DNA from: a virus
Lineage: Duplodnaviria > Caudoviricetes
Length of the DNA: 64,000 nt
Strand: one strand, 5' to 3'
Virus record (IMG/VR): IMGVR_UViG_3300009873_000081
Location: 39,995 to 103,994 of that record
The notes under the pieces are model-generated. The model was not told where the DNA came from and ran no database searches. It saw nothing but the letters and a program-made list of their open reading frames with translations. Below are positions 1 through 13,987 of this stretch, piece after piece. Position numbers and translations under genes: made by a program. Numbering within the stretch: position 1 is the first letter of the stretch; each line of letters starts with the position of its first letter.

Positions 1-663
1 GGTCTCTATCTCCTGCCCGTGCGTAGTGCGGCCTTCCCAATAAATTTCGTCATTATGACAATAAATACTTTGGTCGTTGGGAATTTGATCCCTAATCTTT
101 TTTGGTAAACTTGCAAAGAAATCAAGCGGCCTTAAAAGCTTGGTAACGATGATAACTGGCGCATCGTCAAATAAAGGATGAGCACCAGCAGCCTTATCAG
201 TAAAAACGTTGCGATAAGAAAGATCACGAAATCTTAGTTCTCCGCGTCCATAGTCAGCAATATTGTCCACATCGTTGAGAATCCAACCGATGCCGTGCTT
301 TTGCTGACGTGTTACTGTGCGCTCCATGAGCACGCTGCCCAAAGATTGATAAAAATGATAATCAAGAAAGTCATTCAGAACTTGCGCCAGTCCCACGTCT
401 TCCTTGCGAGTGCCATAGACAATACCTGTAGGCTTTTGAGCAATCATCATACTTATTCTGGTCAAAAGCAACGGGCGAAGCTTATTGAGCACAATGTCAC
501 TGCCGCCCCTCGCACGAAGCTTGTCCGACCACCCTTTCGTGTGTTGAGCACCAGCAACAGCCTTCTCATTCTTATCACGACCGCGCCGCCACTCCTGGCT
601 ATCAGTTTTGTATGCCTCGTAAGCATCCCAATCCATTTTTATTTGTTGGTCATTTACTGCCAT
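1..663 (-). CDS. Phage portal protein, N-terminal part (runs off window)
   Basis: Not in the ORF track. Manual translation from ATG at 663 gives MAVNDQQIKMDWDAYEAYK...IVLNKLRPLL...KEDVGLAQVLNDFL...HGIGWIL...NVFTD...FDDAPVIIVTK, open to base 1. Resembles P22-type portal N-termini and lies just downstream of TerL. Confidence 0.75.
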   Translation of the reverse strand, partial: MAVNDQQIKMDWDAYEAYKTDSQEWRRGRDKNEKAVAGAQHTKGWSDKLRARGGSDIVLNKLRPLLLTRISMMIAQKPTGIVYGTRKEDVGLAQVLNDFLDYHFYQSLGSVLMERTVTRQQKHGIGWILNDVDNIADYGRGELRFRDLSYRNVFTDKAAGAHPLFDDAPVIIVTKLLRPLDFFASLPKKIRDQIPNDQSIYCHNDEIYWEGRTTHGQEIET

Positions 664-666
664 AGC

Positions 667-1074
667 TTAATTCGCTTTATAAATATTCCAATCGTAACAA
701 CGATTAACCAATTGTCGATTTAAATTCTCGACAACTGAGCAAAACTTTTCCTCGTCTTTCAGCAGATCGAGCTTTCTTCGTCTTGCCCAGGTCAGCGCCG
801 CATGTGTGATCTCATGAGTAGTCACGCCTACGCCCAAATCTCTTTGCCAGAAAAAGACACATCCGCACAAACGCGGATTCTTGAATTTCTCCTGTGAGTT
901 TGCAAACGATACTACACAAGCTCGAAGCGATTTGCCCATTTGATTTCTTTCGATACCTGTGGCTCTTACAGCTTCGAGCATCGTCTTTTTTCTTTGAAAA
1001 ATCCAAACCAAAAAATAAAGCGACTTGTTTTCAGGGTAAATGCGAAATTTCCAAAATAAGTTGGAGTGTCGCAT
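667..1074 (-). CDS. Small HExxH (zincin-like) phage protein
   Basis: VTTHEITHAAL motif followed by DEE. Confidence 0.5.
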   Translation of the reverse strand: MRHSNLFWKFRIYPENKSLYFLVWIFQRKKTMLEAVRATGIERNQMGKSLRACVVSFANSQEKFKNPRLCGCVFFWQRDLGVGVTTHEITHAALTWARRRKLDLLKDEEKFCSVVENLNRQLVNRCYDWNIYKAN

Positions 1075-2739
1075 TTAATAAATCCCAAGTTCAGCAAAAT
1101 TTGTCGGCACAAAGCCCAAATCGTCGTCAGGCTCGTCGCGCTCGATTCTGAATTTTTCCAATCTTGTTAAGGCTCGAAACAAAGGCTCAGTACAAACGTG
1201 AGAATTTTCTTCACCAAATTGCAATGAATCGAGAAGGTGAGGCGATTTCATAGAGTCAAACAAACGACCTTCATGCTCGATTTCTTTCATTTCTGGCCTT
1301 ATGGCAATCTGTCCTAACGAAAGACGAGGGTTCAAACCAGCATAAATACGGCCTTTTTTGTCTGGCGGCTGGTACTTGATAAAGATTGGCGAAAACGGAT
1401 ATTTGGCAAAGAATGTATCACCAACAACTTTTTCGTTGGTCATAGGCGCGTAGATTCTGGCTCCGCCAATGGCCTCGATAACGACGCTATTATAGAAATA
1501 TTTTTTATGCAGCTCTAAAGCTCGATCTATAATTTTAGTTGGCGACATAAAATTGTAATCAAACTCTAAAATCCAAGTCATATTAAAAACAATCGGTTCT
1601 CCGATGTTCTCGATTCTTTTAAAAACTCTGCCACGAGCGACGGTCATCAAAACCCGCTCGTCAGCGTTGTCGCCTTCAGCAAAGGCAGGATCAATATAGA
1701 GAAAGGTATAAACCGGAATTGGATCGGGGTATTCGTCAGAGATCAAAACATTTTGCACACCTTCGTAGCGTTTGAACGTCATGTGGTGATAAACCCATCC
1801 TGTCAGTTCCTTAGTCAATTCCGGAATGATCACATTTTGACGCTCTGCCAGGAAAATACCTCTTTTACCTTCTTCAACAGCTTTCTTTGCCTGTGCTCTT
1901 AATCTCTCAGTTGGATGATAGCTTTCCCAGATACTAACGCCTTTGATTTCTTTTGGATCGTCAAGTAAATCAGGAGAGCCGTCAGGAAGCACCAGTGAGT
2001 GAAAGGAAGTTCCTTTGTATTTCTTATCCTTCATAATGTGGTCGAGCAAACAGCCGGGGCCAAGCAAATTTCCAATATACCTGACCTTGCCATAAGTTGA
2101 ATCTATTGCGTACTCAACTTCTCTCTCCCAGAAGGATTTATGCGACTCAAGCGTGGAAGGCTCACGCATGTCTGGTGAGTCTTCTACATCATCGCCTAGT
2201 ATCAAAGTATAACGCCAGCCCTTTTTCTGACCGGAACGCACACTACCTCCCAAACCGATTGAGCGCAGATAAACGCCGTTGGTCGGCGCAATCTCGTGCG
2301 CACTCCAAACCGATTCTCGGCTTTGTGGCCTAAGCTCACCATAAACTTCTAACAACTTTGGATTGCACTCAATATCAAATTTTAGATCGGCAAGCATGGC
2401 TTTGCCGGAATCCCCCACCTTACCGATAAGTAGAATATAAGGCTCAAGCTTATAGTAAATTCTATAGAGCGTATTAAAGCGAACGTGACTCGTTTTTGCG
2501 AGTTCGCGTGGGCTTGTACAGTAATAATATTGGTAGTTTAGGGCAAGAGAGTAATGAATGCCCCAGTGTGGAGGAGCAATATCCTGAGTTCGCATATAAA
2601 AATGCGGCTCGTTCTCAGGATCACCAAAGAAATACATCGACCAGGCAATAACACGCTTGGTCGTCTCGGTAGGATCGTTTGGCACTGGCGCGAACTCAGC
2701 TTTAATCGCTTCGCGCTGGCTTTTAGTCAAGCTGAACAA
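1075..2739 (-). CDS. terL: Terminase large subunit
   Basis: Walker A-like SPRELAKTS, Walker B ILGDDVED, coupling motif YIGN, RNase H-like nuclease motif YIDPA; near the portal gene. Confidence 0.9.
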   Translation of the reverse strand: MFSLTKSQREAIKAEFAPVPNDPTETTKRVIAWSMYFFGDPENEPHFYMRTQDIAPPHWGIHYSLALNYQYYYCTSPRELAKTSHVRFNTLYRIYYKLEPYILLIGKVGDSGKAMLADLKFDIECNPKLLEVYGELRPQSRESVWSAHEIAPTNGVYLRSIGLGGSVRSGQKKGWRYTLILGDDVEDSPDMREPSTLESHKSFWEREVEYAIDSTYGKVRYIGNLLGPGCLLDHIMKDKKYKGTSFHSLVLPDGSPDLLDDPKEIKGVSIWESYHPTERLRAQAKKAVEEGKRGIFLAERQNVIIPELTKELTGWVYHHMTFKRYEGVQNVLISDEYPDPIPVYTFLYIDPAFAEGDNADERVLMTVARGRVFKRIENIGEPIVFNMTWILEFDYNFMSPTKIIDRALELHKKYFYNSVVIEAIGGARIYAPMTNEKVVGDTFFAKYPFSPIFIKYQPPDKKGRIYAGLNPRLSLGQIAIRPEMKEIEHEGRLFDSMKSPHLLDSLQFGEENSHVCTEPLFRALTRLEKFRIERDEPDDDLGFVPTNFAELGIY

Positions 2740-2744
2740 ATCAT

Positions 2745-2880
2745 TGCTCTAAAACCGTCCTGGCGGTTGTATTCCTGGATACTATCAGTCTGCTGGTGAC
2801 GGTTTCCAGGATGTCCGTGCTTCGCGGCGTCCCGCTAACCAGCAGAGCTTTTATCCTACGCACCGCTATTTAGGTAGGAT
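2745..2880 (-). ncRNA. Candidate pseudoknotted RNA in the terL 5' leader
   Basis: Three crossing complementary pairs (TCTGCTGG/CCAGCAGA, TCCTGGA/TCCAGGA, AAACCGTC/GACGGTTT) plus an ATCCTAC/GTAGGAT hairpin. Confidence 0.4.
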
Positions 2881-2894
2881 TGGCTTTATCAAAT

Positions 2895-3536
2895 CTATGC
2901 ACTAAAAATAAAAGCGTGATTCTCGAAATTTTTTAAATTGCCAAACTGTCCGTGATTTTTGTAGTATTCGAGCTTGAAGCCCAAATCCTGCATTAAGCCT
3001 GTCAAGTCCTTGTCAGTAATGCCGTATTGCCAGATCGCCGTCGAATCGGGATTTCTTTCAATATCTTGATACGACGGATGCTTTTGATCGTGAGGTACAT
3101 TCCTGAAATATTCATCCATGCCCAAACCAAGCAGTCTTATCGAGCTTTCTGATTTGATCCACATCGGATTATAGATCAAAAAGGTCTTGACTTGTTTGGC
3201 ATAAAGCTTGATAACGCTTTTCCAATCCGGCTTTGCCTGATGCAACAATACGTCAAACATAAAGGCAACATCGGCATTGCCGATCTGTCCGGCGATTTTA
3301 GGCGTGGCAAAGTTCCCGCAAATGTCGTAAAGATTCTTTTGGCCGTTTTTTATCTGATAGAATTTTTCTGAAAAAGAGCTGTCAACGATATAAGCACACT
3401 CAGAATGATACTTGCCGAAAGCATAAAACGTGTAAGCCCCGTCTACGTTCCAATTGCCGCCCAGATCGACAAACGATTTCGGCTTCGGCTCCCGGCTAAA
3501 AGCCAGGTCGATCAATTCAAGCTTGTGCTGATTCAC
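2895..3536 (-). CDS. Class I SAM-dependent methyltransferase
   Basis: SFVDLGG motif I, then VD, and FMFDVLLHQ. Confidence 0.7.
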   Translation of the reverse strand: MNQHKLELIDLAFSREPKPKSFVDLGGNWNVDGAYTFYAFGKYHSECAYIVDSSFSEKFYQIKNGQKNLYDICGNFATPKIAGQIGNADVAFMFDVLLHQAKPDWKSVIKLYAKQVKTFLIYNPMWIKSESSIRLLGLGMDEYFRNVPHDQKHPSYQDIERNPDSTAIWQYGITDKDLTGLMQDLGFKLEYYKNHGQFGNLKNFENHAFIFSA

Positions 3537-4018
3537 TTTTTCTCAAATTGAAAGTAAGCGTAGCCGTCTGCGACCGTTCGGAGAGTCGGGACGTAGCCTA
3601 AACCAAGCAAACGGTCATATTGCTCGATCATCTTTTTGTTGTTGGGTGCTTCGGGATTTTTGAAGAGCACACCAGCATTTTCCAAATCGAGTAGAGCTAA
3701 TGGCATTTTTAGAAAGTCATAAGGTGAGAGTGGCTTTGGCTCTGATGTCTCGATTGTTCCGCCAATCTTTACATTTTGCAACGGTGTTGTCTTAGGCTGA
3801 TCTTCAATACCGCGTAAAATAGGTTGAGGAAGAGCCTGTTTGATCGTTGGCTCGACAACAGGATATGGATGCTTTGGGATGGGAGCGTCTTTTGGTTGCT
3901 CTTTTGGCTTGGATAAAATCTCAGAAAAGGTTTTTGCCGGACGTTTAGCAACAGCTTCCGGTTCAAGATTTTTCTTCGTTGCTTTGACATCAGGTTCCTT
4001 ACTTTTTGCCTTTGCCAT
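3533..4018 (-). CDS. Hypothetical Lys/Pro-rich protein
   Basis: 161-aa ORF overlapping both neighbours in the operon. Confidence 0.6.
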   Translation of the reverse strand: MAKAKSKEPDVKATKKNLEPEAVAKRPAKTFSEILSKPKEQPKDAPIPKHPYPVVEPTIKQALPQPILRGIEDQPKTTPLQNVKIGGTIETSEPKPLSPYDFLKMPLALLDLENAGVLFKNPEAPNNKKMIEQYDRLLGLGYVPTLRTVADGYAYFQFEKK

Positions 4019-4163
4019 AACCTTTTGCCTTCGTTGGAGTTTTACCGCCCGCCAGCAATCCCATTAAACCGCGTTGTGCCGAAGTCAGAGGCTTGCCATG
4101 CACTGTGCCGTCTTTTAAGATTCGCTTGGCCTTATATCTTGATAGCAATTTCTTCTTTGGCAC
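3999..4163 (-). CDS. Small basic protein (54 aa)
   Basis: Not in the track. AAGGAG then GTG gives MPKKKLLSRYKAKRILKDGTVHGKPLTSAQRGLMGLLAGGKTPTKAKGYGKGKK; its start lies inside the 3' end of the LAGLIDADG gene. Confidence 0.6.
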   Translation of the reverse strand: MPKKKLLSRYKAKRILKDGTVHGKPLTSAQRGLMGLLAGGKTPTKAKGYGKGKK

Positions 4164-5256
4164 TTTTCATCTCCTTTAGTCTTTTTTCAAAGAAATTTCT
4201 CTTATACAACTCAAAGCTAGACGGTAACTTATTACCATTAGAAAATTTGCAGTACCTATAGAACTTAATAGCTAACTCAGCTTGCTCTTTTTTAACCGTC
4301 ATTTGGCTTACTATACGCTTGAGAAAATCAGCAGCTTTTATGCCATGTAAGCTCCAAACAAATGTATTTGCTAAACGATTAAAATATAACTTTCCGCCGT
4401 TCTGCTTAGTCAATTGAAACAAATGTTTTATAGCTTCAAACTCTCGCATTTGCACAGTAACAACAAGATTATGATAAACAACCGAATTATAGTATCGTTT
4501 TGTACCGTAAATACCTATACATCCTTCGCCATCTACAATACCTGCGAGATAGGCTGAATCCTGTGGCACAGACCAATCAACATTCGGCAGATCAGTACTA
4601 CTTTTGAAATTATTAGCAAGTTTCAATTCTTTTATTGTATTCTCAAATTGATCTCGCCTACTTAGATCGTCATTAGTCACTAAGCTATTACAACGATAGA
4701 AATAGCATTCTTGATAGAAACTTATAGCAAATTCAGCCTGCTTTTTCTTAACCTTTAGAAAAGGCAAAATTCTCCTAAGAAAAACAAAAGCTTTTAAACC
4801 ATAGATATGCCAGCCGTATAGCATCCCGTTTTTTACGATTTTATTTTTTTGCTTAGATTTTTTCGTTTGTGTTAAAAACGCCAGTTGATTCACAGCACCG
4901 CTATTTGTCATTGTAACAGATACAAGCAATTGATGATATGTGGACTTTCTTACACCGAATGGCTTCTTTTTATACACGCCTATAGTGCCCTCGCTATCAA
5001 CTATACCTGCGCAGTATGCAGCATCGCTATCTGACATAGCGAACTTACTTTCGATATTTTCAACTTGTTTGCTTCTTAACTCAATTTTCTTTCGAGGCCT
5101 GTTTCTTATTCTTGATGCCTTTTTATCTGCATCGCAGCATAATCTGCATCTTCCTGTTCTACCATCAGAGTTCCTCTTATCAGGATAAAACTCTGTAAAG
5201 TTTTTACTAATTTTACAAAAATTACAAACTTTTGACATAGGCATACAACTATTCAA
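4132..5256 (-). CDS. Double-motif LAGLIDADG homing endonuclease with N-terminal Cys-rich zinc-finger-like region
   Basis: AYCAGIVDSEGTIG and AYLAGIVDGEGCIG motifs, each followed by KKxQAE.AI.FY; AT-rich relative to flanks. Confidence 0.9.
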   Translation of the reverse strand: MNSCMPMSKVCNFCKISKNFTEFYPDKRNSDGRTGRCRLCCDADKKASRIRNRPRKKIELRSKQVENIESKFAMSDSDAAYCAGIVDSEGTIGVYKKKPFGVRKSTYHQLLVSVTMTNSGAVNQLAFLTQTKKSKQKNKIVKNGMLYGWHIYGLKAFVFLRRILPFLKVKKKQAEFAISFYQECYFYRCNSLVTNDDLSRRDQFENTIKELKLANNFKSSTDLPNVDWSVPQDSAYLAGIVDGEGCIGIYGTKRYYNSVVYHNLVVTVQMREFEAIKHLFQLTKQNGGKLYFNRLANTFVWSLHGIKAADFLKRIVSQMTVKKEQAELAIKFYRYCKFSNGNKLPSSFELYKRNFFEKRLKEMKSAKEEIAIKI

Positions 5257-5262
5257 TCCTTT

Positions 5263-5310
5263 TCACTTCCCAGCTTTTGCTTTGGATGGGTATTTTCTTT
5301 TCTTAGCCAT
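5263..5310 (-). pseudogene. Orphaned original 5' end of the small basic protein gene
   Basis: AAGGAG RBS then MAKKRKYPSKAKAGK*, similar to the N-terminus of the 3999-4163 ORF. Confidence 0.5.
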
Positions 5311-6814
5311 TTGAAATCTCCTTTGCTCGATTCAGTGTTTCGCCGATCATATCTTCAAAATTAAGCGGCACTGGCTCAAACAAGCTTTCCGGCGCTGCAA
5401 CCGCAGGGCTTAGATTGTAACCTGAATCTTTGGCGCGTTTTGGCCATCGTGCCATTACGTTGGATTCAAATTCCGGCTCAACCTTATACCATTTGCCCTG
5501 CCACTTTAGATCGAGCTTGGGATCAGGCGCTTGGGTTTCTGTAGCATACTCCGAAAGCATGTACTCGATCCAGGACAAGCGGACTGCATTTTCCACCTGC
5601 GGCGGGCTTTTTCTTTGTTCCAGCGCGATATTGGGATGGTCTAATGCACTGGCTTCGATAACATGGCTGCTCTTCTCGAATGCGGCAATGAATTGCGCCT
5701 CTTTTACCGGACGATAGAAAGCCACAAATTTAACGTTTTCTCCGGCCAACACACTTTCCGCTTTTTTCCAAAACGCTTCCGGTATATCGTGAGCACGGTC
5801 AAAAACAATCAGCAAATTAGTCTCGCGTTTCGGCTCGAAAAGTGTAATGTCTTTGGCAGTCAAACCCTGCGCATAGTGACTATAATTCATCTCCATGCGC
5901 GGCGCTTTGGGAGAGAGTCCAAAACGTTCTCCTCTTTGCATTCTAATCTCAGCCCAAAGCTTGTCCACAAGCAAATCTTCGGTCGGGGCCACTGCCAAAA
6001 CTACTGAAGGCACAAAGGCATCGAAGAACCAATTGATTAGAACAGCCGCAATAAAGCTTGCGCCTTGATATTGACTGCCACGAAACAAAATTCGGTTATT
6101 TTTGTTTTTGACTACTGACTGCAAAAGCTCGCTTTGCTTTAGCGTTGGCCTTCTTTTTAGAACATCTCGCATATATTTGAGCGGTAGATCACGATAGCTT
6201 TTATAATCCCGACCAGCCTCTAAAAAAGCGAAAAGCCTGAAGCGGCTTTCTGGCGGCAGGCTCTTGTCTTCAAGAAGATGCGCAGCTAAAATCCGGTAAG
6301 CTGCCTTTGCCTCTTCAGTCAACGGCAGATCAACATTTTTGATTTCCTCGAATCGGGCTTCTTCTGTTCCATCAGGTAACTCGTCTTCGTTAGCATCGTC
6401 ATCAAGCAAAGCTTCGGTACTGATACCAACGCTATCGTGGTTTGGCATTAGCAGTCCGGCAAGATAAGCTTTATGCTCTGCCGGCAACCCTTCTACCATC
6501 AACAAAAAGGCGTCTTCTTTTGACATCTCAGACTGCGGCAGACCATAAAATCGGTTGAGTAGAATGTTGGCAGCAGCTACGCATTGACGATTTTCGGTAT
6601 TAGTCGCAACGTCATAAAGCGCGTCAATGACTCGCTTCAAGCGCGACATTTTTGATTTATACCTGTGGTCGGGCCTCTGCATATAAGCCCGACCAAACTC
6701 TGCCAAGCCAAAACCAATTTTGGAGCTTTTGTTATCTCCCGGATACCATTTATTTAAAAAATGATCAGCCGTTTTTGGCGCGGTATAAATTTTACCTGTT
6801 TCATAGTCGCTCAT
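5303..6814 (-). CDS. TerS-like N-terminus fused to a degenerate terminase-type ATPase domain
   Basis: N-terminal helical AAANILLNRFYGLP segment; C-terminal PTLKQ, RGSQYQGASF (decayed Walker A), VAPT, LLIVFDRA (decayed Walker B), AFYRP. Confidence 0.6.
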   Translation of the reverse strand: MSDYETGKIYTAPKTADHFLNKWYPGDNKSSKIGFGLAEFGRAYMQRPDHRYKSKMSRLKRVIDALYDVATNTENRQCVAAANILLNRFYGLPQSEMSKEDAFLLMVEGLPAEHKAYLAGLLMPNHDSVGISTEALLDDDANEDELPDGTEEARFEEIKNVDLPLTEEAKAAYRILAAHLLEDKSLPPESRFRLFAFLEAGRDYKSYRDLPLKYMRDVLKRRPTLKQSELLQSVVKNKNNRILFRGSQYQGASFIAAVLINWFFDAFVPSVVLAVAPTEDLLVDKLWAEIRMQRGERFGLSPKAPRMEMNYSHYAQGLTAKDITLFEPKRETNLLIVFDRAHDIPEAFWKKAESVLAGENVKFVAFYRPVKEAQFIAAFEKSSHVIEASALDHPNIALEQRKSPPQVENAVRLSWIEYMLSEYATETQAPDPKLDLKWQGKWYKVEPEFESNVMARWPKRAKDSGYNLSPAVAAPESLFEPVPLNFEDMIGETLNRAKEISNG

Positions 6815-6882
6815 ATTACACAAAGATAAACAATTACTTGAACTCTGTCAAGTAAAATCTACACAACAGAGGAAAATGGCGA

Positions 6883-7161
6883 TTATTTTGTTCGCCGGAA
6901 GGCAGTTTGAGGGCAGTGTACAGGCGAAAATTTCGGGATGACTTCGGCAGGTCTGCTCCAGTCTGAAACGAGTCCGCCAATTTTGACTCGCGCTCGAACA
7001 TCACATGGAGCGCCGTAGAGCACGACAAAATTCTTTTCAGACTCAACAGTTTTGAAAACTTGTTTGCCTACGGATGTTAATTGCTCGACTTCAAATATTG
7101 CATTTTCAACATCTGATCCCAAAACCAAGACGGGGCTGTATTGGTCAAGGTCGTAAGAAAT
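6883..7161 (-). pseudogene. 3' part of a gene interrupted by the TnpB cassette (Fn3-like)
   Basis: ISYDLDQY...VRARVKIGGLVSDWSRPA...; has no start codon of its own but joins in frame to 8580-8681. Confidence 0.65.
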
Positions 7162-7183
7162 GTGCAGAAAAGTGATAAAAATA

Positions 7184-8431
7184 TTAACACTTGACTTTTT
7201 GCGCAGTCGGACAGACCAGCGCTGGGCGACACACACGCCCTCTATCGGCTATCGGTATCACCGAATCGCCGAATGCTTTCCTTGCTATGCCGATGGCTCC
7301 GTTAACATCGGCGTTGATTGTAAATCCAAGCGAGGACTGGAAAAGTCCGCGCTTGATTCGCTTGCCGAGATAGTTCTCGAAATGTTGCATCGGTTCTTTG
7401 GCAAAATGATCGATCTTGGAAGTGTAGCTTTCCTCGCTCTCCATGACTGTGATACCGTACTCACGCGCCTTGTAGGAAATCATTCCTGCCAAACGAGCAT
7501 GCGGTATTTGCACGAAGTTTTGATTGTTGGATGAACCAAGATTGCTTTCTTGCTTCCAAAATTGATTTCGACCAATGACGATTGTGCCAATGCGATTCTC
7601 TATACAAAAATTTATGATGAATCTGCTGGTCTTGTGCAGGTAATCATTGACTTTGTTGTTGCGTTTCGAGTTTATGCTTTTTATCCTGTGCGAGCTTTTG
7701 GTTTTGATTATGGATTGCAGACGCGCTTTTTCTTTGTTGAAAGACTGGTTGATCGACTTGAGCGGTCTTCCGTTGATCAACGAACTTTCGGAAACGTTTG
7801 AGAACATGGCGGCAAGATTGTTCACGCCAAGATCAAGCGATACAAAGTTTTTCGCATCAACTTCGGCAGATTTTATTTCATCATCATACACTATGTCAAA
7901 GACGAATTTCTGGCTTTGCAATGTAATGCGAACCTGCCGAAATTTATTAGGTTTGATCTTTGTCTTGATCGGCTTTATTTCCTTCAATCCAAACTTATCA
8001 AGTTTAGGAAACTTTATTACGCCACTTTTCACTTGTACCTGCTGGCAAGTAAAAATGACGGTTCCGGTTTTGTTCTCACGAAGATATTTCGGGATTGACG
8101 GTTTGGCCTTGAATGATGATTGATTTTTTTTAAACGCTCTCAACGCTGCAAACCACGATGTAAATGAGCGGCAAGCCTGGATAACTACTTGTTGTGCGGT
8201 CTGTGCTGGTAAGGTGCGATACAATTCATGATTCTCGGAGACGAAAAAATTGATAAAATCTATCGCAGTGAAAACCGGCTCACGCCAAAATACTTTTTGC
8301 CGTTGGACAAAAATCACCGTGTTGTATAAAGCTTTTGAACGATTGGCAAGCTCAAAAATATTTTTGTCAAACGGTCTAACATGTCGTTCGACTTTTGATA
8401 TGAGATTTTCAGGTTTGTTCTTTCGTTTCAT
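7184..8431 (-). CDS. tnpB: RNA-guided endonuclease TnpB (IS200/IS605-related clade without zinc finger)
   Basis: RuvC motifs SLDLGVNN, IVIGRNQFWKQ, EESYTS, NADVNGA; start placed at MKRK after the leader terminator. Confidence 0.92.
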   Translation of the reverse strand: MKRKNKPENLISKVERHVRPFDKNIFELANRSKALYNTVIFVQRQKVFWREPVFTAIDFINFFVSENHELYRTLPAQTAQQVVIQACRSFTSWFAALRAFKKNQSSFKAKPSIPKYLRENKTGTVIFTCQQVQVKSGVIKFPKLDKFGLKEIKPIKTKIKPNKFRQVRITLQSQKFVFDIVYDDEIKSAEVDAKNFVSLDLGVNNLAAMFSNVSESSLINGRPLKSINQSFNKEKARLQSIIKTKSSHRIKSINSKRNNKVNDYLHKTSRFIINFCIENRIGTIVIGRNQFWKQESNLGSSNNQNFVQIPHARLAGMISYKAREYGITVMESEESYTSKIDHFAKEPMQHFENYLGKRIKRGLFQSSLGFTINADVNGAIGIARKAFGDSVIPIADRGRVCRPALVCPTAQKVKC

Positions 8432-8432
8432 G

Positions 8433-8550
8433 AAATAAAAAACCCTTGCAAGGTGCCATCGTGATTCACCGAAACGGTGGATTACGAAACCCGCAAGGGT
8501 CATTCGGTAAATCATGATGGCACTTTAAAAATATAAAATTTTTATGTCAA
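8433..8550 (-). promoter_or_regulatory. Promoter plus attenuator-like leader of tnpB
   Basis: TTGACA-17-TAAAGT; a long 5' stem competes with an ACCCTTGC/GCAAGGGT-polyT terminator. Confidence 0.6.
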
Positions 8551-8579
8551 AAGCAAACACTTTTATCAAATTTATGCAC

Positions 8580-8681
8580 TACAATCGTTTCGGGTGGGTT
8601 AAGATCAGTGCGGTTGCTTTCGAGAATTACAAGTGGGACGTGGGCAGCCAGAGTAAAGAGGAAGATAAAGAACTTGTCCAT
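8580..8681 (-). pseudogene. 5' part of the TnpB-interrupted gene
   Basis: AGGAG upstream; MDKFFIFLFTLAAHVPLVILESNRTDLNPPETIV with a hydrophobic signal-like start. Confidence 0.6.
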
Positions 8682-8780
8682 AAGTTGCTAAACGCTCCTA
8701 AAGTTGTATTATACAGTTCGTTTACCTCCCTCGATAGTCTTTAGGAGCAACTTCAGTGCCTAACGCCGTGCTGCTCAAGA

Positions 8781-8975
8781 TTAATCAGTTAATTCGTGCA
8801 AATCTGGTATTTTTTCCAAGCCTTTTTCAAGTTCCAATCTGACAATTTTATGCCCCATCAGCTTTAGAATGATCGCATCTGTTAACTTCAATTTGCCGAC
8901 ATAATACGAGGTTTTACCAACGTGAACAAACCCGCCTTCGACTAATTTTTGTTTTACACTTTCTTCTTCAGACAT
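8781..8975 (-). CDS. Hypothetical protein
   Basis: ORF overlapping the upstream gene. Confidence 0.5.
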   Translation of the reverse strand: MSEEESVKQKLVEGGFVHVGKTSYYVGKLKLTDAIILKLMGHKIVRLELEKGLEKIPDLHELTD

Positions 8976-9511
8976 AGCAAAATCGTGCGGTTAAAGTGAA
9001 TATAGCGCAGCAGCGGCCTTATACCTTTAAAACACCAATACCAGGGTACTGGGTTTATTCGGGTTTTAGCCTCGACTACAAAATTGGCTTTGTCGATCAA
9101 AGCCATTAACTCGTCTTCAGCAAATTCGTGAAAGTGACGAGGGCCACGTAGAAACCTCGGACGATCAATTGGCGTCGAGATAAACAATCTACCATTATTG
9201 GCAAGCAACTGACAAGCAGATTCCAGACAAACCAAAGGATTCATCGGGTGTTCGATGACCTCAAAGCAAAAAACATAATCAAACTTTCTGTCCAACGAAA
9301 ACTTGTAGTCGAGATCAAAATGGGTATTCTCAATAGAAAATCCTAACAAAGACTCCAACGATTCGGTGAGCTTGGTGCGATCACCCAAATCGAGAGCACT
9401 GCTACCTTCAAATGAAAAATTTTTTAACCATTGCAAAGTCAGCTTCCAGCGTTTTTCTACATCTTGCCTTAAGCCATACTCTTCATCAACACTATGCTTT
9501 AGATCGAGCAT
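8954..9511 (-). CDS. Class I SAM-dependent methyltransferase
   Basis: ALDLG, FDYVFCFEVIEH, GRLFISTP. Confidence 0.85.
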   Translation of the reverse strand: MLDLKHSVDEEYGLRQDVEKRWKLTLQWLKNFSFEGSSALDLGDRTKLTESLESLLGFSIENTHFDLDYKFSLDRKFDYVFCFEVIEHPMNPLVCLESACQLLANNGRLFISTPIDRPRFLRGPRHFHEFAEDELMALIDKANFVVEAKTRINPVPWYWCFKGIRPLLRYIHFNRTILLCLKKKV

Positions 9512-12419: not shown

Positions 12420-12560
12420 CTCGTTACCTTTTAGCTGCCGGTGTATCGGCACCTGAAGTCTACACTTCAGTTCTTGCTTCTACGAGGGTTCTTACCGACA
12501 CTCACTCTCTGCAAGCGTTTAGGCTTTCGCCAAGTTCCGGTGTAACTCACCGTACTTCTT
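12420..12560 (-). ncRNA. Putative omega-RNA/right-end region of the second tnpB
   Basis: ACGCTTGCAGAGAG...GAAGCAAGAA overlapping the stop codon, followed by two hairpins, as is usual at tnpB 3' ends. Confidence 0.55.
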
Positions 12561-13622
12561 TAAGTTTAGAGCGGCATTCAAATCACGATCAATGGATAAA
12601 CCGCAATCGCAGGTGTAATTTCTATCCGAAAGAGTTAAATCTTCTTTAATTGAACCGCATTTTGAGCAAAGCTTACTTGATGGAAAAAATCTATCAGCCA
12701 CAATAACCTGCTTATTACGCCATTTGGCTTTGTATTCGACCTGCCGACGAATCTCACCAAATCCTATATCGTGAATAGCTCGCGCAAGTTTTTCATTTTT
12801 CAACATTCCTCGGACATTCAAGTTCTCAAGTACAATTGTGGAAAAATTACCTGTTATATAGTCTGATAGCCTGTGTGCAAAATCTCTTCGAGTGTTAGCT
12901 ATTCGCCAGTGCAAAACAGATAAACGTCCTGCTGATTTTATCTGGTTGTTACTACCTTTGGTTTTCTTAGAGTGTTGCCGTTGACGCTTTCTAAGTAATC
13001 GCAACTTCTTACCCAAAGGTCTAGGATTATCAAAAAATTTTCCACTTGATAATACAGCAGCATGCCTTAAGCCAAGATCAACACCAATAACTGCTTGGTT
13101 CTCACAAATTGTTGGTTTGATCTCGGTTTCAAGACATATTGCTACAAACCATCGTCTGCCTTCATAACTTACTGTAGTTGAAAGCAGTCTTCCGCTCCGT
13201 CGCATTGGTTTTGCCATTTTTACGAAACCAATTTTTGACAATCTAATCTTGGTGTCTTTAATATAGAAAGTTCCAGGGCCGTTATCAATTCTTGCTGATT
13301 GTTTTCCTGTTTTCTTTTTAAATCGAGGGTATTTGCCCAATCCCTTAAAAAACCTATCAAAGGCAACACCCAAATTTAAGATTGCCTCTTGCACAACACG
13401 TTTTGGTGATTCATACATCCACGGAAAGTACTCACCTTTGATCTCGTTAAGACCTTTGTTAAGCATTTTGACATTTGGCTTTTGACCGTCTCTACGAAGT
13501 GTTTGCCACATTTCTAAAGCCCAATTATAAGCAAAACGAGATGCTCCAACAGCTTGTTTAAGCTTTTCTTCTTGAAAGACGGTTGGATAAATACGAATCT
13601 TCTCTGCTGCATGAGTTTTCAT
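12519..13622 (-). CDS. tnpB: RNA-guided endonuclease TnpB (OrfB type with HTH and zinc ribbon)
   Basis: KIRIYPT...RFAYNWAL, GVDLG, IVLENLNV, PSSKLCSKCG...CDCG..IDRDLNAA. Confidence 0.95.
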   Translation of the reverse strand: MKTHAAEKIRIYPTVFQEEKLKQAVGASRFAYNWALEMWQTLRRDGQKPNVKMLNKGLNEIKGEYFPWMYESPKRVVQEAILNLGVAFDRFFKGLGKYPRFKKKTGKQSARIDNGPGTFYIKDTKIRLSKIGFVKMAKPMRRSGRLLSTTVSYEGRRWFVAICLETEIKPTICENQAVIGVDLGLRHAAVLSSGKFFDNPRPLGKKLRLLRKRQRQHSKKTKGSNNQIKSAGRLSVLHWRIANTRRDFAHRLSDYITGNFSTIVLENLNVRGMLKNEKLARAIHDIGFGEIRRQVEYKAKWRNKQVIVADRFFPSSKLCSKCGSIKEDLTLSDRNYTCDCGLSIDRDLNAALNLKKYGELHRNLAKA

Positions 13623-13987
13623 TGGATTTGCCTTCCTTCAACTCCACGTTCGATTCTGGCTTTAGTACGTTTGTTAAGCCATTCTAACGCCTTTTCCAAG
13701 TGATAATTAGCATAGCCATTTTCTGGACATTTAAATTGACCACTTTGGAAACCATTCAACCGATCAATCACGATTGCAATCAAATTTTCGTTTGTGCAAC
13801 CGTTGACTCCTGCCTCTTGAATTGCACCGTTTTGGAAACTAATCGAGGCAAAAGGCTTATGTCCTTCGCAAGGCACACGATCTTCAGTTGGATAGACTCG
13901 ATACTCATGACAAGCGCCACCTATTCCAGGTAGCCCTAAGCACAGGACTTGTGTACGACCAGGTTCACCGATTTCGACTTTTCTCAT
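13619..13987 (-). CDS. Tad1/Acb2-family nucleotide-signal sponge (anti-Thoeris/CBASS)
   Basis: GGACHEY...FQNG..EAGVNG..NENLIAIVIDRL..FQSGQFKCPEN..A..HLEKALEWLNKRT..R..RGVEG. Confidence 0.8.
   Translation of the reverse strand: MRKVEIGEPGRTQVLCLGLPGIGGACHEYRVYPTEDRVPCEGHKPFASISFQNGAIQEAGVNGCTNENLIAIVIDRLNGFQSGQFKCPENGYANYHLEKALEWLNKRTKARIERGVEGRQIQ

What the first reader, a model, noticed from the sequence alone, without database searches (positions are those of the whole stretch)
5303..6814. Second terminase-like gene: TerS-like region fused to a catalytically decayed ATPase
Seen: terminase ATPase landmarks occur in order, but Walker A lacks Lys (GSQYQGAS), Walker B reads FDRA instead of xDEA, the GNP motif reads YRP, and no nuclease domain follows. 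The frame is intact over about 500 aa and has its own promoter. An intact TerL lies at 1075-2739. Inference: an exapted pseudo-ATPase acting as the small subunit, as a motor regulator, or as a decoy for terminase-sensing defences such as Avs.
Basis: partly seen in the sequence, partly recalled or inferred. Interest (0 to 1): 0.72.

Follow-up and report, generated by a model that had tools for sequence, protein, structure and literature searches.

The report
Dead terminase-ATPase copy beside real terL
Just upstream of its working DNA-packaging enzyme, this uncultured short-tailed phage keeps a half-length copy of a different packaging enzyme. The copy has lost every ATP-burning residue and its DNA-cutting half, yet selection preserves it in six related phage lineages. 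In this one record a 17-base deletion has welded it to the small gene in front of it.

Summary
The motif observations hold. The ORF at 5303-6814 (minus strand) carries a terminase large-subunit (TerL) ATPase domain with the Walker A Lys, Walker B Glu and C-motif Asn replaced, and no nuclease domain.

The 500-aa "fusion" is specific to this record. An otherwise identical assembly (0 mismatches in 14.3 kb) has 17 more bases at position 6337 and encodes two overlapping genes: a 162-aa protein (A162) and a 347-aa pseudo-TerL (psTerL). All relatives have a stand-alone 338-352-aa psTerL.

psTerL derives from a P22/Sf6-type TerL family. Its nearest intact members (41-56% identity, 545-900 aa) are the only TerL of their phages. 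psTerL ends at the first strand of the lost nuclease domain.

Six lineages keep it. Non-synonymous divergence is far below saturated synonymous divergence (pN/pS 0.11-0.32), similar to the real TerL and portal. So the decay is not recent.

psTerL always sits in the packaging operon, ahead of two small conserved genes and an unrelated, intact TerL. Sister lineages with that same TerL lack it nearby, so it is an accessory.

The most likely role is a non-catalytic binding subunit or regulator. A role as an immune decoy or as a poison subunit is not excluded. That A162 is a small terminase (TerS) rests mainly on gene position.

This scan has noted dead TerL-ATPase copies before, in other, unrelated phages.

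The parts
5303..6337 (-). psTerL part. It corresponds to residues 4-347 of the stand-alone 347-aa pseudo-TerL: the N-terminal helical region plus the TerL ATPase domain. It is catalytically dead and ends at the first strand of the lost nuclease domain.
6338..6814 (-). A162 part. It corresponds to residues 1-159 of a 162-aa, all-helical protein that is a separate gene in the sister assembly. It is a candidate small terminase of the ancestral TerL.
6337..6338 (.). Junction of the 17-bp deletion, between two CAAA repeats. The deletion removes the TGA stop of A162 and the overlapping TTG start of psTerL, and puts the two frames in register.
6056..6079 (-). Walker A remnant GSQYQGAS. The family-invariant Lys is Ala here.
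5792..5815 (-). Walker B remnant LLIVFDRA. The Asp is kept; the catalytic Glu is Arg.
5708..5719 (-). C-motif remnant FYRP. The family-invariant Asn is Arg.
5933..5962 (-). Retained family-conserved arginines in the stretch KLWAEIRMQR (R135 and R138 of the 347-aa protein). They are candidate trans-acting arginine fingers.
   Evidence: searches show conservation; the role is inferred from P74-26 TerL R139, cf. 4znj
6823..6851 (-). Promoter-like site TTGACA-17-TATCTT just upstream of the A162 start. It is a consensus match only.
4132..5256 (-). Homing-endonuclease-like gene (HNH plus a weak LAGLIDADG match). It is inserted between psTerL and the small gene s54, which directly follows psTerL in relatives.
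3999..4163 (-). s54, a conserved ~50-aa gene. In relatives it overlaps or abuts the psTerL stop.
3533..4018 (-). m161, a conserved gene. In every relative with this TerL type it lies between s54 and the TerL gene (directly upstream of TerL in L005 and L013), with or without psTerL. It is a candidate partner of the real TerL.
1075..2739 (-). The real, intact TerL. It belongs to a different family and has no detectable similarity to psTerL or its intact relatives.

Best explanation
What it is (shown). The ORF is two genes welded together by a 17-bp deletion.
- The upstream gene (A162, 162 aa) is the usual neighbour of a P22/Sf6-type TerL family.
- The downstream gene (psTerL, 347 aa) is the first ~345 residues of such a TerL. 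It is cut at the first strand of the nuclease domain and has lost every residue needed to bind and hydrolyse ATP.
- psTerL sits at the head of the packaging operon of a phage whose working TerL, portal and capsid belong to a different, self-sufficient module. It looks like the 5' remnant of a terminase left by a module swap.
- It has since been kept by purifying selection in six lineages.

How it most likely works (inferred). psTerL is a non-catalytic binding protein made together with the terminase. It keeps the folded ATPase core, the N-terminal helices and the conserved arginines, which in real TerLs contact the small subunit and neighbouring subunits. Through these it would dock A162 and/or the real terminase or DNA, and so tune the start of packaging without burning ATP. 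The natural in-frame fusion with A162 fits the idea that the two proteins act together.
For: Origin:
- psTerL is 41-56% identical to full-length TerLs with intact K/E/N motifs, and these are the only TerL of their phages, directly upstream of the portal.
- The family profile hits the P22/Sf6-type TerL nuclease domains in the PDB.
- Dead forms and these intact TerLs form a clade with 98/95 support.

Loss of catalysis:
- K96, G172, E184 and N212 are invariant in 106 intact relatives and are all replaced here.
- The ends of the two dead clades align with each other, and a single origin is not rejected (p-AU 0.535).

Fold: the model has pLDDT 90.3, and its top PDB matches are TerL ATPase domains.

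Selection:
- Synonymous sites are saturated (pS 0.75-0.83) while pN is 0.087-0.26, giving pN/pS 0.11-0.32. The real TerL gives 0.20-0.24 and the portal 0.19-0.23 for the same genome pairs.
- The frames are intact in six lineages.

Operon:
- The A162 stop overlaps the psTerL start in L002 and L005.
- s54 overlaps or abuts the psTerL stop in L005, L007 and L013.
- m161 and the real TerL then follow.

A162: an A162 homologue lies upstream of the intact TerL in L004.

Fusion: the 17-bp indel is the only difference in 14,346 bp.
Against: - No interaction was tested.
- Close relatives with the same real TerL, portal and capsid type (L012, L014) have no psTerL within 3.7-7 kb upstream. It is therefore not needed for that terminase to work.
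- A162 is absent next to psTerL in L003, L007 and L013, and it evolves fast (pN/pS 0.72). psTerL therefore cannot depend on it everywhere.
- The real TerL is of an unrelated sequence family, so a direct mixed ring is not obviously possible.
- The TerS identity of A162 has no family or fold support.
- The viability of the fused variant is unknown.
Confidence: 0.45

Rival explanations
1. Immune decoy or shield. psTerL mimics the TerL ATPase fold that bacterial sensors (Avs1-3, Upx) recognise. It would occupy those sensors without letting them assemble, or protect the real TerL from them.
For: - The accessory, lineage-variable distribution is typical of counter-defence genes.
- The gene keeps the fold while destroying the ATP site.
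- The same genome carries an Acb2/Tad1-type sponge gene.
Against: - There is no direct evidence.
- In the cited paper, the ATPase-like proteins tested with Avs2 activate it and do not block it.
- Upx binds an unfolded ATPase core regardless of catalytic residues, so a dead copy could just as well be an extra trigger.
- The gene sits inside the late packaging operon, not among early anti-defence genes.
Confidence: 0.2
2. Relic of recombination with no protein function of its own. It would be kept only because it carries signals (promoter, coupled translation, a pac site) for the genes behind it.
For: - It is the 5' part of a TerL cut at a domain border, at the boundary between two modules of different ancestry.
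- All catalytic residues are gone.
- Sister lineages do without it.
Against: - Constraint is at the protein level, not the DNA level. Synonymous sites are saturated while pN is as low as in the real TerL.
- The frame is intact and the length is the same (338-352 aa) in six lineages, across a divergence of 62% identity in the real TerL.
- The model is confidently folded.
Confidence: 0.15
3. Weapon against competing phages. psTerL (with A162) would be a dominant-negative subunit that enters or titrates the terminase of co-infecting phages that use the intact P0007/P0012-type TerL, and so stalls their packaging.
For: - psTerL is 41-56% identical to the working TerL of such phages and keeps family-conserved arginines and surface motifs while lacking catalysis.
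- In L002 and L005 it is paired with a homologue of the small gene that lies upstream of the intact TerL in L004.
- Its distribution is accessory.
Against: - This is purely inferential.
- No co-occurrence data were obtained.
- The long stem branch of the window's clade (0.79 changes per site) moves it away from the presumed targets.
Confidence: 0.08

Closest known systems
P22/Sf6-type large terminase (gp2); nearest members here are uncultured-phage TerLs P0007 (545 aa) and P0012 (900 aa)
   Same: Clear sequence homology over the whole N-terminal region and ATPase domain (41-56% identity), and the same fold. The family profile reaches the Sf6 gp2 and 8dkr nuclease domains.
   Different: psTerL has no nuclease domain. 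The Walker A Lys, Walker B Glu and C-motif Asn, and the conserved G and H of the FQGxH loop, are replaced. It is not the phage's packaging enzyme.
T4 vs.8, a stand-alone TerL-ATPase-like protein of T4-like phages (PMC13601566)
   Same: A separate gene encoding only a TerL-ATPase-like domain, in a phage that also has a complete TerL. Its function is unknown.
   Different: vs.8 keeps its Walker A and B motifs and derives from the T4-type TerL. psTerL is catalytically dead, derives from a P22/Sf6-type TerL foreign to its own phage's TerL, and lies in the packaging operon.
Dead TerL-ATPase paralogues noted earlier in this scan (Rak2-like jumbo phages' 'truncated large terminase'; PacB paralogues of P1/D6 phage-plasmids)
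   Same: Half-length, nuclease-less, catalytically dead TerL ATPase copies. Those in the jumbo phages lie next to the real terL and are reported as kept by selection (scan notes; not checked here).
   Different: A different TerL family and a different phage group. No sequence match to psTerL appeared in the phage collection. Here the copy is unrelated to the resident TerL, so it is not a local duplicate.
Small terminase subunits / DUF5681 proteins (relevant to the A162 part only)
   Same: About 160 aa, helical, encoded directly upstream of and overlapping a TerL-type gene. There is a language-model likeness to DUF5681 clusters, and a DUF5681 gene occupies the equivalent place in L014.
   Different: No HMM match to any TerS or DUF5681 model, no usable fold model, and no BLAST match to the L014 DUF5681 protein.

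Membership tests
Terminase large subunit (functional TerL) | ASCE/RecA-like TerL ATPase fold with sequence homology to TerLs | tested here: met
   1344 homologues at E<=0.001, mostly ~500-aa TerLs. The AF2 model matches P74-26, D6E, HK97, Sf6 and T4 TerL ATPase domains.
Terminase large subunit (functional TerL) | Walker A lysine | tested here: not met
   Ala in the window's clade and Ser in the L005/L013 clade. It is Lys in 106 of 106 intact relatives.
Terminase large subunit (functional TerL) | Walker B catalytic glutamate | tested here: not met
   Arg (window's clade) or Asn (L005/L013 clade). It is Glu in 106 of 106 intact relatives.
Terminase large subunit (functional TerL) | C (coupling) motif Asn-Pro | tested here: not met
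   Arg-Pro in the window's clade. The L005/L013 clade keeps Asn-Pro.
Terminase large subunit (functional TerL) | C-terminal RNase H-like nuclease domain | tested here: not met
   The protein stops at the first nuclease strand, and the catalytic Asp column is Thr. No nuclease remnant is found downstream.
Small terminase subunit (A162 part) | Small gene directly upstream of, and coupled to, a TerL-type gene | tested here: met
   The stop and start overlap in L002 and L005, and a homologue lies upstream of the intact TerL in L004.
Small terminase subunit (A162 part) | Match to a TerS family model or TerS fold (DNA-binding N-terminus, oligomerisation core) | tested here: inconclusive
   No Pfam, PHROG or NCBIfam hit. 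The AF2 model has pLDDT 50 and gives only generic helical matches. The language-model likeness to DUF5681 scores 0.93.
vs.8-like stand-alone TerL-ATPase paralogues | Stand-alone ATPase-only protein with conserved Walker A and B motifs | tested here: not met
   It is stand-alone in relatives, but both Walker motifs are dead. The vs.8 features are taken from PMC13601566.
Anti-defence decoy of terminase sensors | Binds Avs/Upx and blocks their activation | not testable with these tools
   This needs co-expression or binding assays. Only the published recognition rules could be compared.

The most novel reading that the evidence does not exclude
psTerL is a purpose-kept molecular mimic of the terminase motor domain. 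By presenting the TerL ATPase fold without an ATP site, it would either blind terminase-sensing immune receptors (Avs1-3, Upx) or poison the packaging motors of rival phages. Dead TerL-ATPase copies have also been noted in unrelated phages. That would make 'dead terminase copies' a general, convergently evolved class of phage conflict proteins.
Probability: 0.25. Interest if true: 0.85.

Novelty: new variant of a known kind. Interest (0 to 1): 0.55.

Why it matters
TerL is the most conserved protein of tailed phages and a main target of bacterial pattern-recognition immunity. This gene is a selection-maintained copy that keeps the fold but not the chemistry, and it comes from a TerL family foreign to the phage's own enzyme. 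That makes it a clean natural case of a viral pseudoenzyme.

It gives a defined set of proteins (psTerL, A162, s54, m161, the real TerL) on which two questions can be tested: whether non-catalytic terminase domains regulate packaging, and whether they interfere with terminase sensing.

It also documents a module swap with its breakpoint inside terL, and a natural fusion allele that hints at a physical A162-psTerL partnership.

Tried and rejected
Searches that gave nothing:
- Pfam, NCBIfam and PHROGs gave no useful family for psTerL, A162, s54, m161 or m213. The only hit was phrog_5902, of unknown function, for psTerL.
- PDB sequence searches found nothing with the 9-sequence profile or with the real TerL alone. 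The A162 profile gave only chance hits.
- The AF2 model of A162 was poor (pLDDT 50), and its fold search gave only generic helical bundles.
- The ESM Atlas gave no usable hit for m161.
- The word-index search with A162 found nothing.
- IMG/VR held only two distant relatives of psTerL, at 36% and 23% identity. The JGI metagenome scan found none.
- Literature searches for pseudo-terminase, second or truncated terminase, terminase pseudoenzyme, and 'truncated large terminase' found no description of such a protein.
- No RNA holder was listed for this stretch, and only assembled contigs (no raw reads) could be laid. Expression and allele frequencies of the 17-bp indel are therefore unknown.
- A first IQ-TREE run on 51 sequences timed out. 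It was replaced by FastTree and an 18-row careful tree.

Ideas rejected:
- The nuclease half is not encoded downstream and split off by the homing endonuclease. No similarity to the nuclease domains of three full-length relatives was found anywhere in window 1-9000.
- psTerL is not a duplicate of the resident TerL. There is no detectable similarity.
- The decay is not recent.
- Conservation is not due to a DNA element such as a pac site spanning the gene, because synonymous sites are saturated. A short site cannot be excluded.
- The u90/u96 genes that replace A162 in L003 and L007 are not diverged A162 copies (hhalign probability 0.9%).
- A programmed -1 frameshift making the fusion in the two-gene form is unlikely. 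I saw no slippery heptamer at the overlap (sequence).

Full report
**1. What is at the coordinates**

The finding is a minus-strand ORF. Its stop is at 5303-5305 and its ATG at 6814-6812. The ORF lister extends it to a TTG at 6823, giving 506 aa.

The window is the right-hand 64 kb of a 103,994-bp IMG/VR virus record rated 79% complete.

Read right to left on the minus strand, the neighbourhood is:
- a TnpB element (7184-8515);
- this ORF;
- an HNH/LAGLIDADG-like homing endonuclease gene (4132-5256);
- three small ORFs: s54 (3999-4163), m161 (3533-4018) and m213 (2895-3536);
- a TerL (1075-2739; phrog_38, E 1.7e-34);
- a 135-aa ORF;
- a P22-type portal.

**2.

The motifs GSQYQGAS, LLIVFDRA and FYRP are at 6056-6079, 5792-5815 and 5708-5719.

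A full-library HMMER search found 1344 homologues, almost all ~500-aa TerLs; some ~900-aa hits carry intein-sized inserts. Aligned with the 150 best:
- The three motif columns are K, E and N in 148 of 156 aligned sequences.
- Only the window's clade (P0003-P0006) and P0008 lack both the Lys and the Glu.
- Against 106 intact relatives, the four fully invariant columns (K96, G172, E184, N212 of the 347-aa protein) are all changed in the window's clade, and so is H174 (94% conserved).
- R135, R138, G161, F170, D183, P213 and the HPN motif at 237-239 are kept.

The protein ends where relatives begin their nuclease domain. The family's IGxDxA strand reads IGETLN here, so the catalytic Asp column is Thr. 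tblastn with three full-length relatives finds no nuclease remnant in the first 9 kb of the window.

An AF2 model built on 111 sequences is confident (pLDDT 90.3, pTM 0.83). Its best PDB matches are the TerL ATPase domains of P74-26 (E 1e-7), D6E, HK97, PhiV-1, Sf6 and T4. The family profile also reaches the Sf6 gp2 and 8dkr nuclease domains, so the parent family is P22/Sf6-type TerL.

**3. The 'fusion' is one allele**

The database's own gene for this protein is 347 aa, and all close homologues are 338-347 aa.

A Logan contig from an activated-sludge run (L002) matches the window over 14,346 bp with 0 mismatches and a single gap. That gap is 17 extra bases at window position 6337.

With those bases present there are two genes:
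- a 162-aa gene (A162), ending in TGA;
- the 347-aa psTerL, starting at a TTG that overlaps that stop, in the -1 frame.

The deletion lies between two CAAA repeats. It removes both the stop and the start, and brings the frames into register. Only assembled contigs could be laid, so I cannot say whether both alleles coexist in one population. A 4-bp microhomology deletion looks more like a real variant than an assembler error; this is an inference.

The N-terminal 159 residues have their own stand-alone homologues: P0027 (167 aa), P0047 (158 aa) and the 182-aa gene of L005.

**4. Where psTerL comes from**

The nearest intact relatives are P0007 (545 aa) and P0012 (900 aa, with an insert of about 300 aa in its nuclease half). 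They have intact K/E/N motifs and a nuclease domain. Each is the only TerL of its contig and lies just upstream of a P22-type portal. In L004 a homologue of A162 lies about 750 bp upstream of that TerL.

By contrast, the following all show the same layout: the window and L002, plus L003, L005, L006, L007 and L013. The layout is psTerL (338-352 aa, dead motifs), then s54, then m161, then a TerL of the window's type (62-72% identical among them), then a ~684-aa portal. L007's short contig ends before the TerL gene, and m213 lies before the TerL in the window but after it in L013.

That TerL has no detectable similarity to psTerL or to P0007. Apart from the A162-psTerL pair, almost nothing in the genome matches L004.

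The two dead clades differ in how the catalytic residues were replaced:
- Window type: Ala, Arg, Arg.
- L005/L013 type: Ser, Asn, with the Asn of the C-motif kept.

Both clades end at the same aligned position with similar tails. In a careful tree, the dead forms plus P0007, P0012 and P0014 form a well-supported clade (98/95). A single origin of the dead forms is not rejected (p-AU 0.535). The window's clade sits on a long stem of 0.79 changes per site.

The simplest reading is one recombination with a breakpoint at the start of the nuclease domain. This joined an A162-TerL(5') unit to a foreign s54-m161-TerL-portal module. The direction of the event is not resolved.

**5. It is kept by selection, but it is optional**

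| Gene | Genome pair | pS | pN | pN/pS |
|---|---|---|---|---|
| psTerL | L006-L007 | 0.78 | 0.087 | 0.11 |
| psTerL | L002-L003 | 0.75 | 0.178 | 0.24 |
| psTerL | L005-L013 | 0.82 | 0.262 | 0.32 |
| real TerL | L002-L003 and L005-L013 | 0.79, 0.93 | 0.188 in both | 0.20-0.24 |
| portal | L002-L003 and L005-L013 | 0.82, 0.85 | 0.155, 0.199 | 0.19-0.23 |
| A162 | L002-L005 | 0.74 | 0.532 | 0.72 |

Synonymous sites are saturated in all psTerL pairs, so these ratios are upper bounds on the true dN/dS. Within the window's clade psTerL diverges as slowly as the real TerL (71/65% against 72/70% identity). Between the two dead clades it diverges much faster (40% against 63%). That pattern fits a burst of change after the loss of catalysis, followed by constraint. 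A162 is far less constrained.

L012 and L014 have the same TerL type (59-66% identity), portal and m161. L014 also has the SU10-type capsid gene; L012's short contig ends before it. Neither has a psTerL within 3.7 or 7 kb upstream. L014 has a DUF5681 gene where A162 and psTerL would be.

The TerL tree is an unresolved three-way split: two psTerL-bearing groups and this psTerL-less group. One origin is not rejected (p-AU 0.48). psTerL is therefore an accessory to a self-sufficient packaging module.

A162 is adjacent to psTerL only in L002 and L005. L003, L007 and L013 have other small genes there.

**6. How it most likely works**

Shown: the protein is folded, catalytically dead, selected, and expressed from the packaging operon in tight coupling with its neighbours.

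Inferred: it acts by binding. I rank the possibilities as follows.
- a) A non-catalytic accessory of the terminase that docks A162 and/or the real terminase or DNA. This fits the operon position, the retained N-terminal helices and arginines, and the natural fusion allele.
- b) A mimic that interferes with terminase-sensing immunity.
- c) A functionless relic.
- d) A poison subunit against rival phages that use the intact relative TerL.

Published work bears on (b). It shows that the TerL ATPase domain alone is what Avs2 and Upx sense. Avs2 contacts the ATP in the terminase site. T4 vs.8 is a stand-alone TerL-ATPase-like protein with intact Walker motifs that enters the same pocket and activates Avs2 (PMC13601566). 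A copy without an ATP site could therefore either evade or block such sensors. Nothing here tests that.

**7. Comparison and novelty**

psTerL is homologous to P22/Sf6-type TerL but fails four of five defining features, so it is not a TerL in function.

The closest described analogue is T4 vs.8, which differs in keeping its catalytic motifs and in deriving from its own phage's TerL type.

Earlier notes of this scan report dead TerL-ATPase copies in Rak2-like jumbo phages and in P1/D6 phage-plasmids. I did not check them. psTerL gave no sequence match to such phages, so this would be an independent origin. I found no paper describing a catalytically dead terminase paralogue.

I rate it a new variant of a known kind. 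Interest is moderate to high for the conserved pseudoenzyme and low for the 'fusion' as such.

Noticed in passing
window 6883-8681: The TnpB element (7184-8515) splits a small gene. The N-terminal 41 aa of the L003 125-aa gene match 8559-8681, and the C-terminal part of its L007 homologue matches 6940-7167, on either side of TnpB. This agrees with an earlier scan note.
   Followed up: partly
window 4132-5256: A homing-endonuclease-like gene (phrog_5046 HNH at E 7e-35, with a weak LAGLIDADG match) sits exactly where s54 abuts psTerL in relatives. L003 has two other small ORFs there, and L005, L006, L007 and L013 have none. It looks like a recent insertion.
   Followed up: partly
L009:5416-8118 (P0012), and several ~900-aa hits: Many intact relatives of this TerL family carry inserts of 300-400 aa. 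Some lie right after the Walker A GK (for example P0157, where the insert starts with Cys) and some after Walker B. P0012's insert lies in the nuclease half. They look like inteins.
   Followed up: no
L013:5580-6224 versus window 2895-3536: The m213 gene lies upstream of the real TerL in the window but downstream of it in L013 (49% identity). This is a small rearrangement inside the packaging operon.
   Followed up: no
L014:5564-6040: In a psTerL-less relative, a 158-aa DUF5681 protein with the GQSGNPKGRP motif overlaps the small gene that precedes m161 and the TerL. It is the likely small terminase of this TerL type. It does not BLAST to A162.
   Followed up: partly
window 13619-13987 and 12519-13622: An Acb2/Tad1-hairpin family gene lies directly upstream of a second TnpB.
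   Followed up: no
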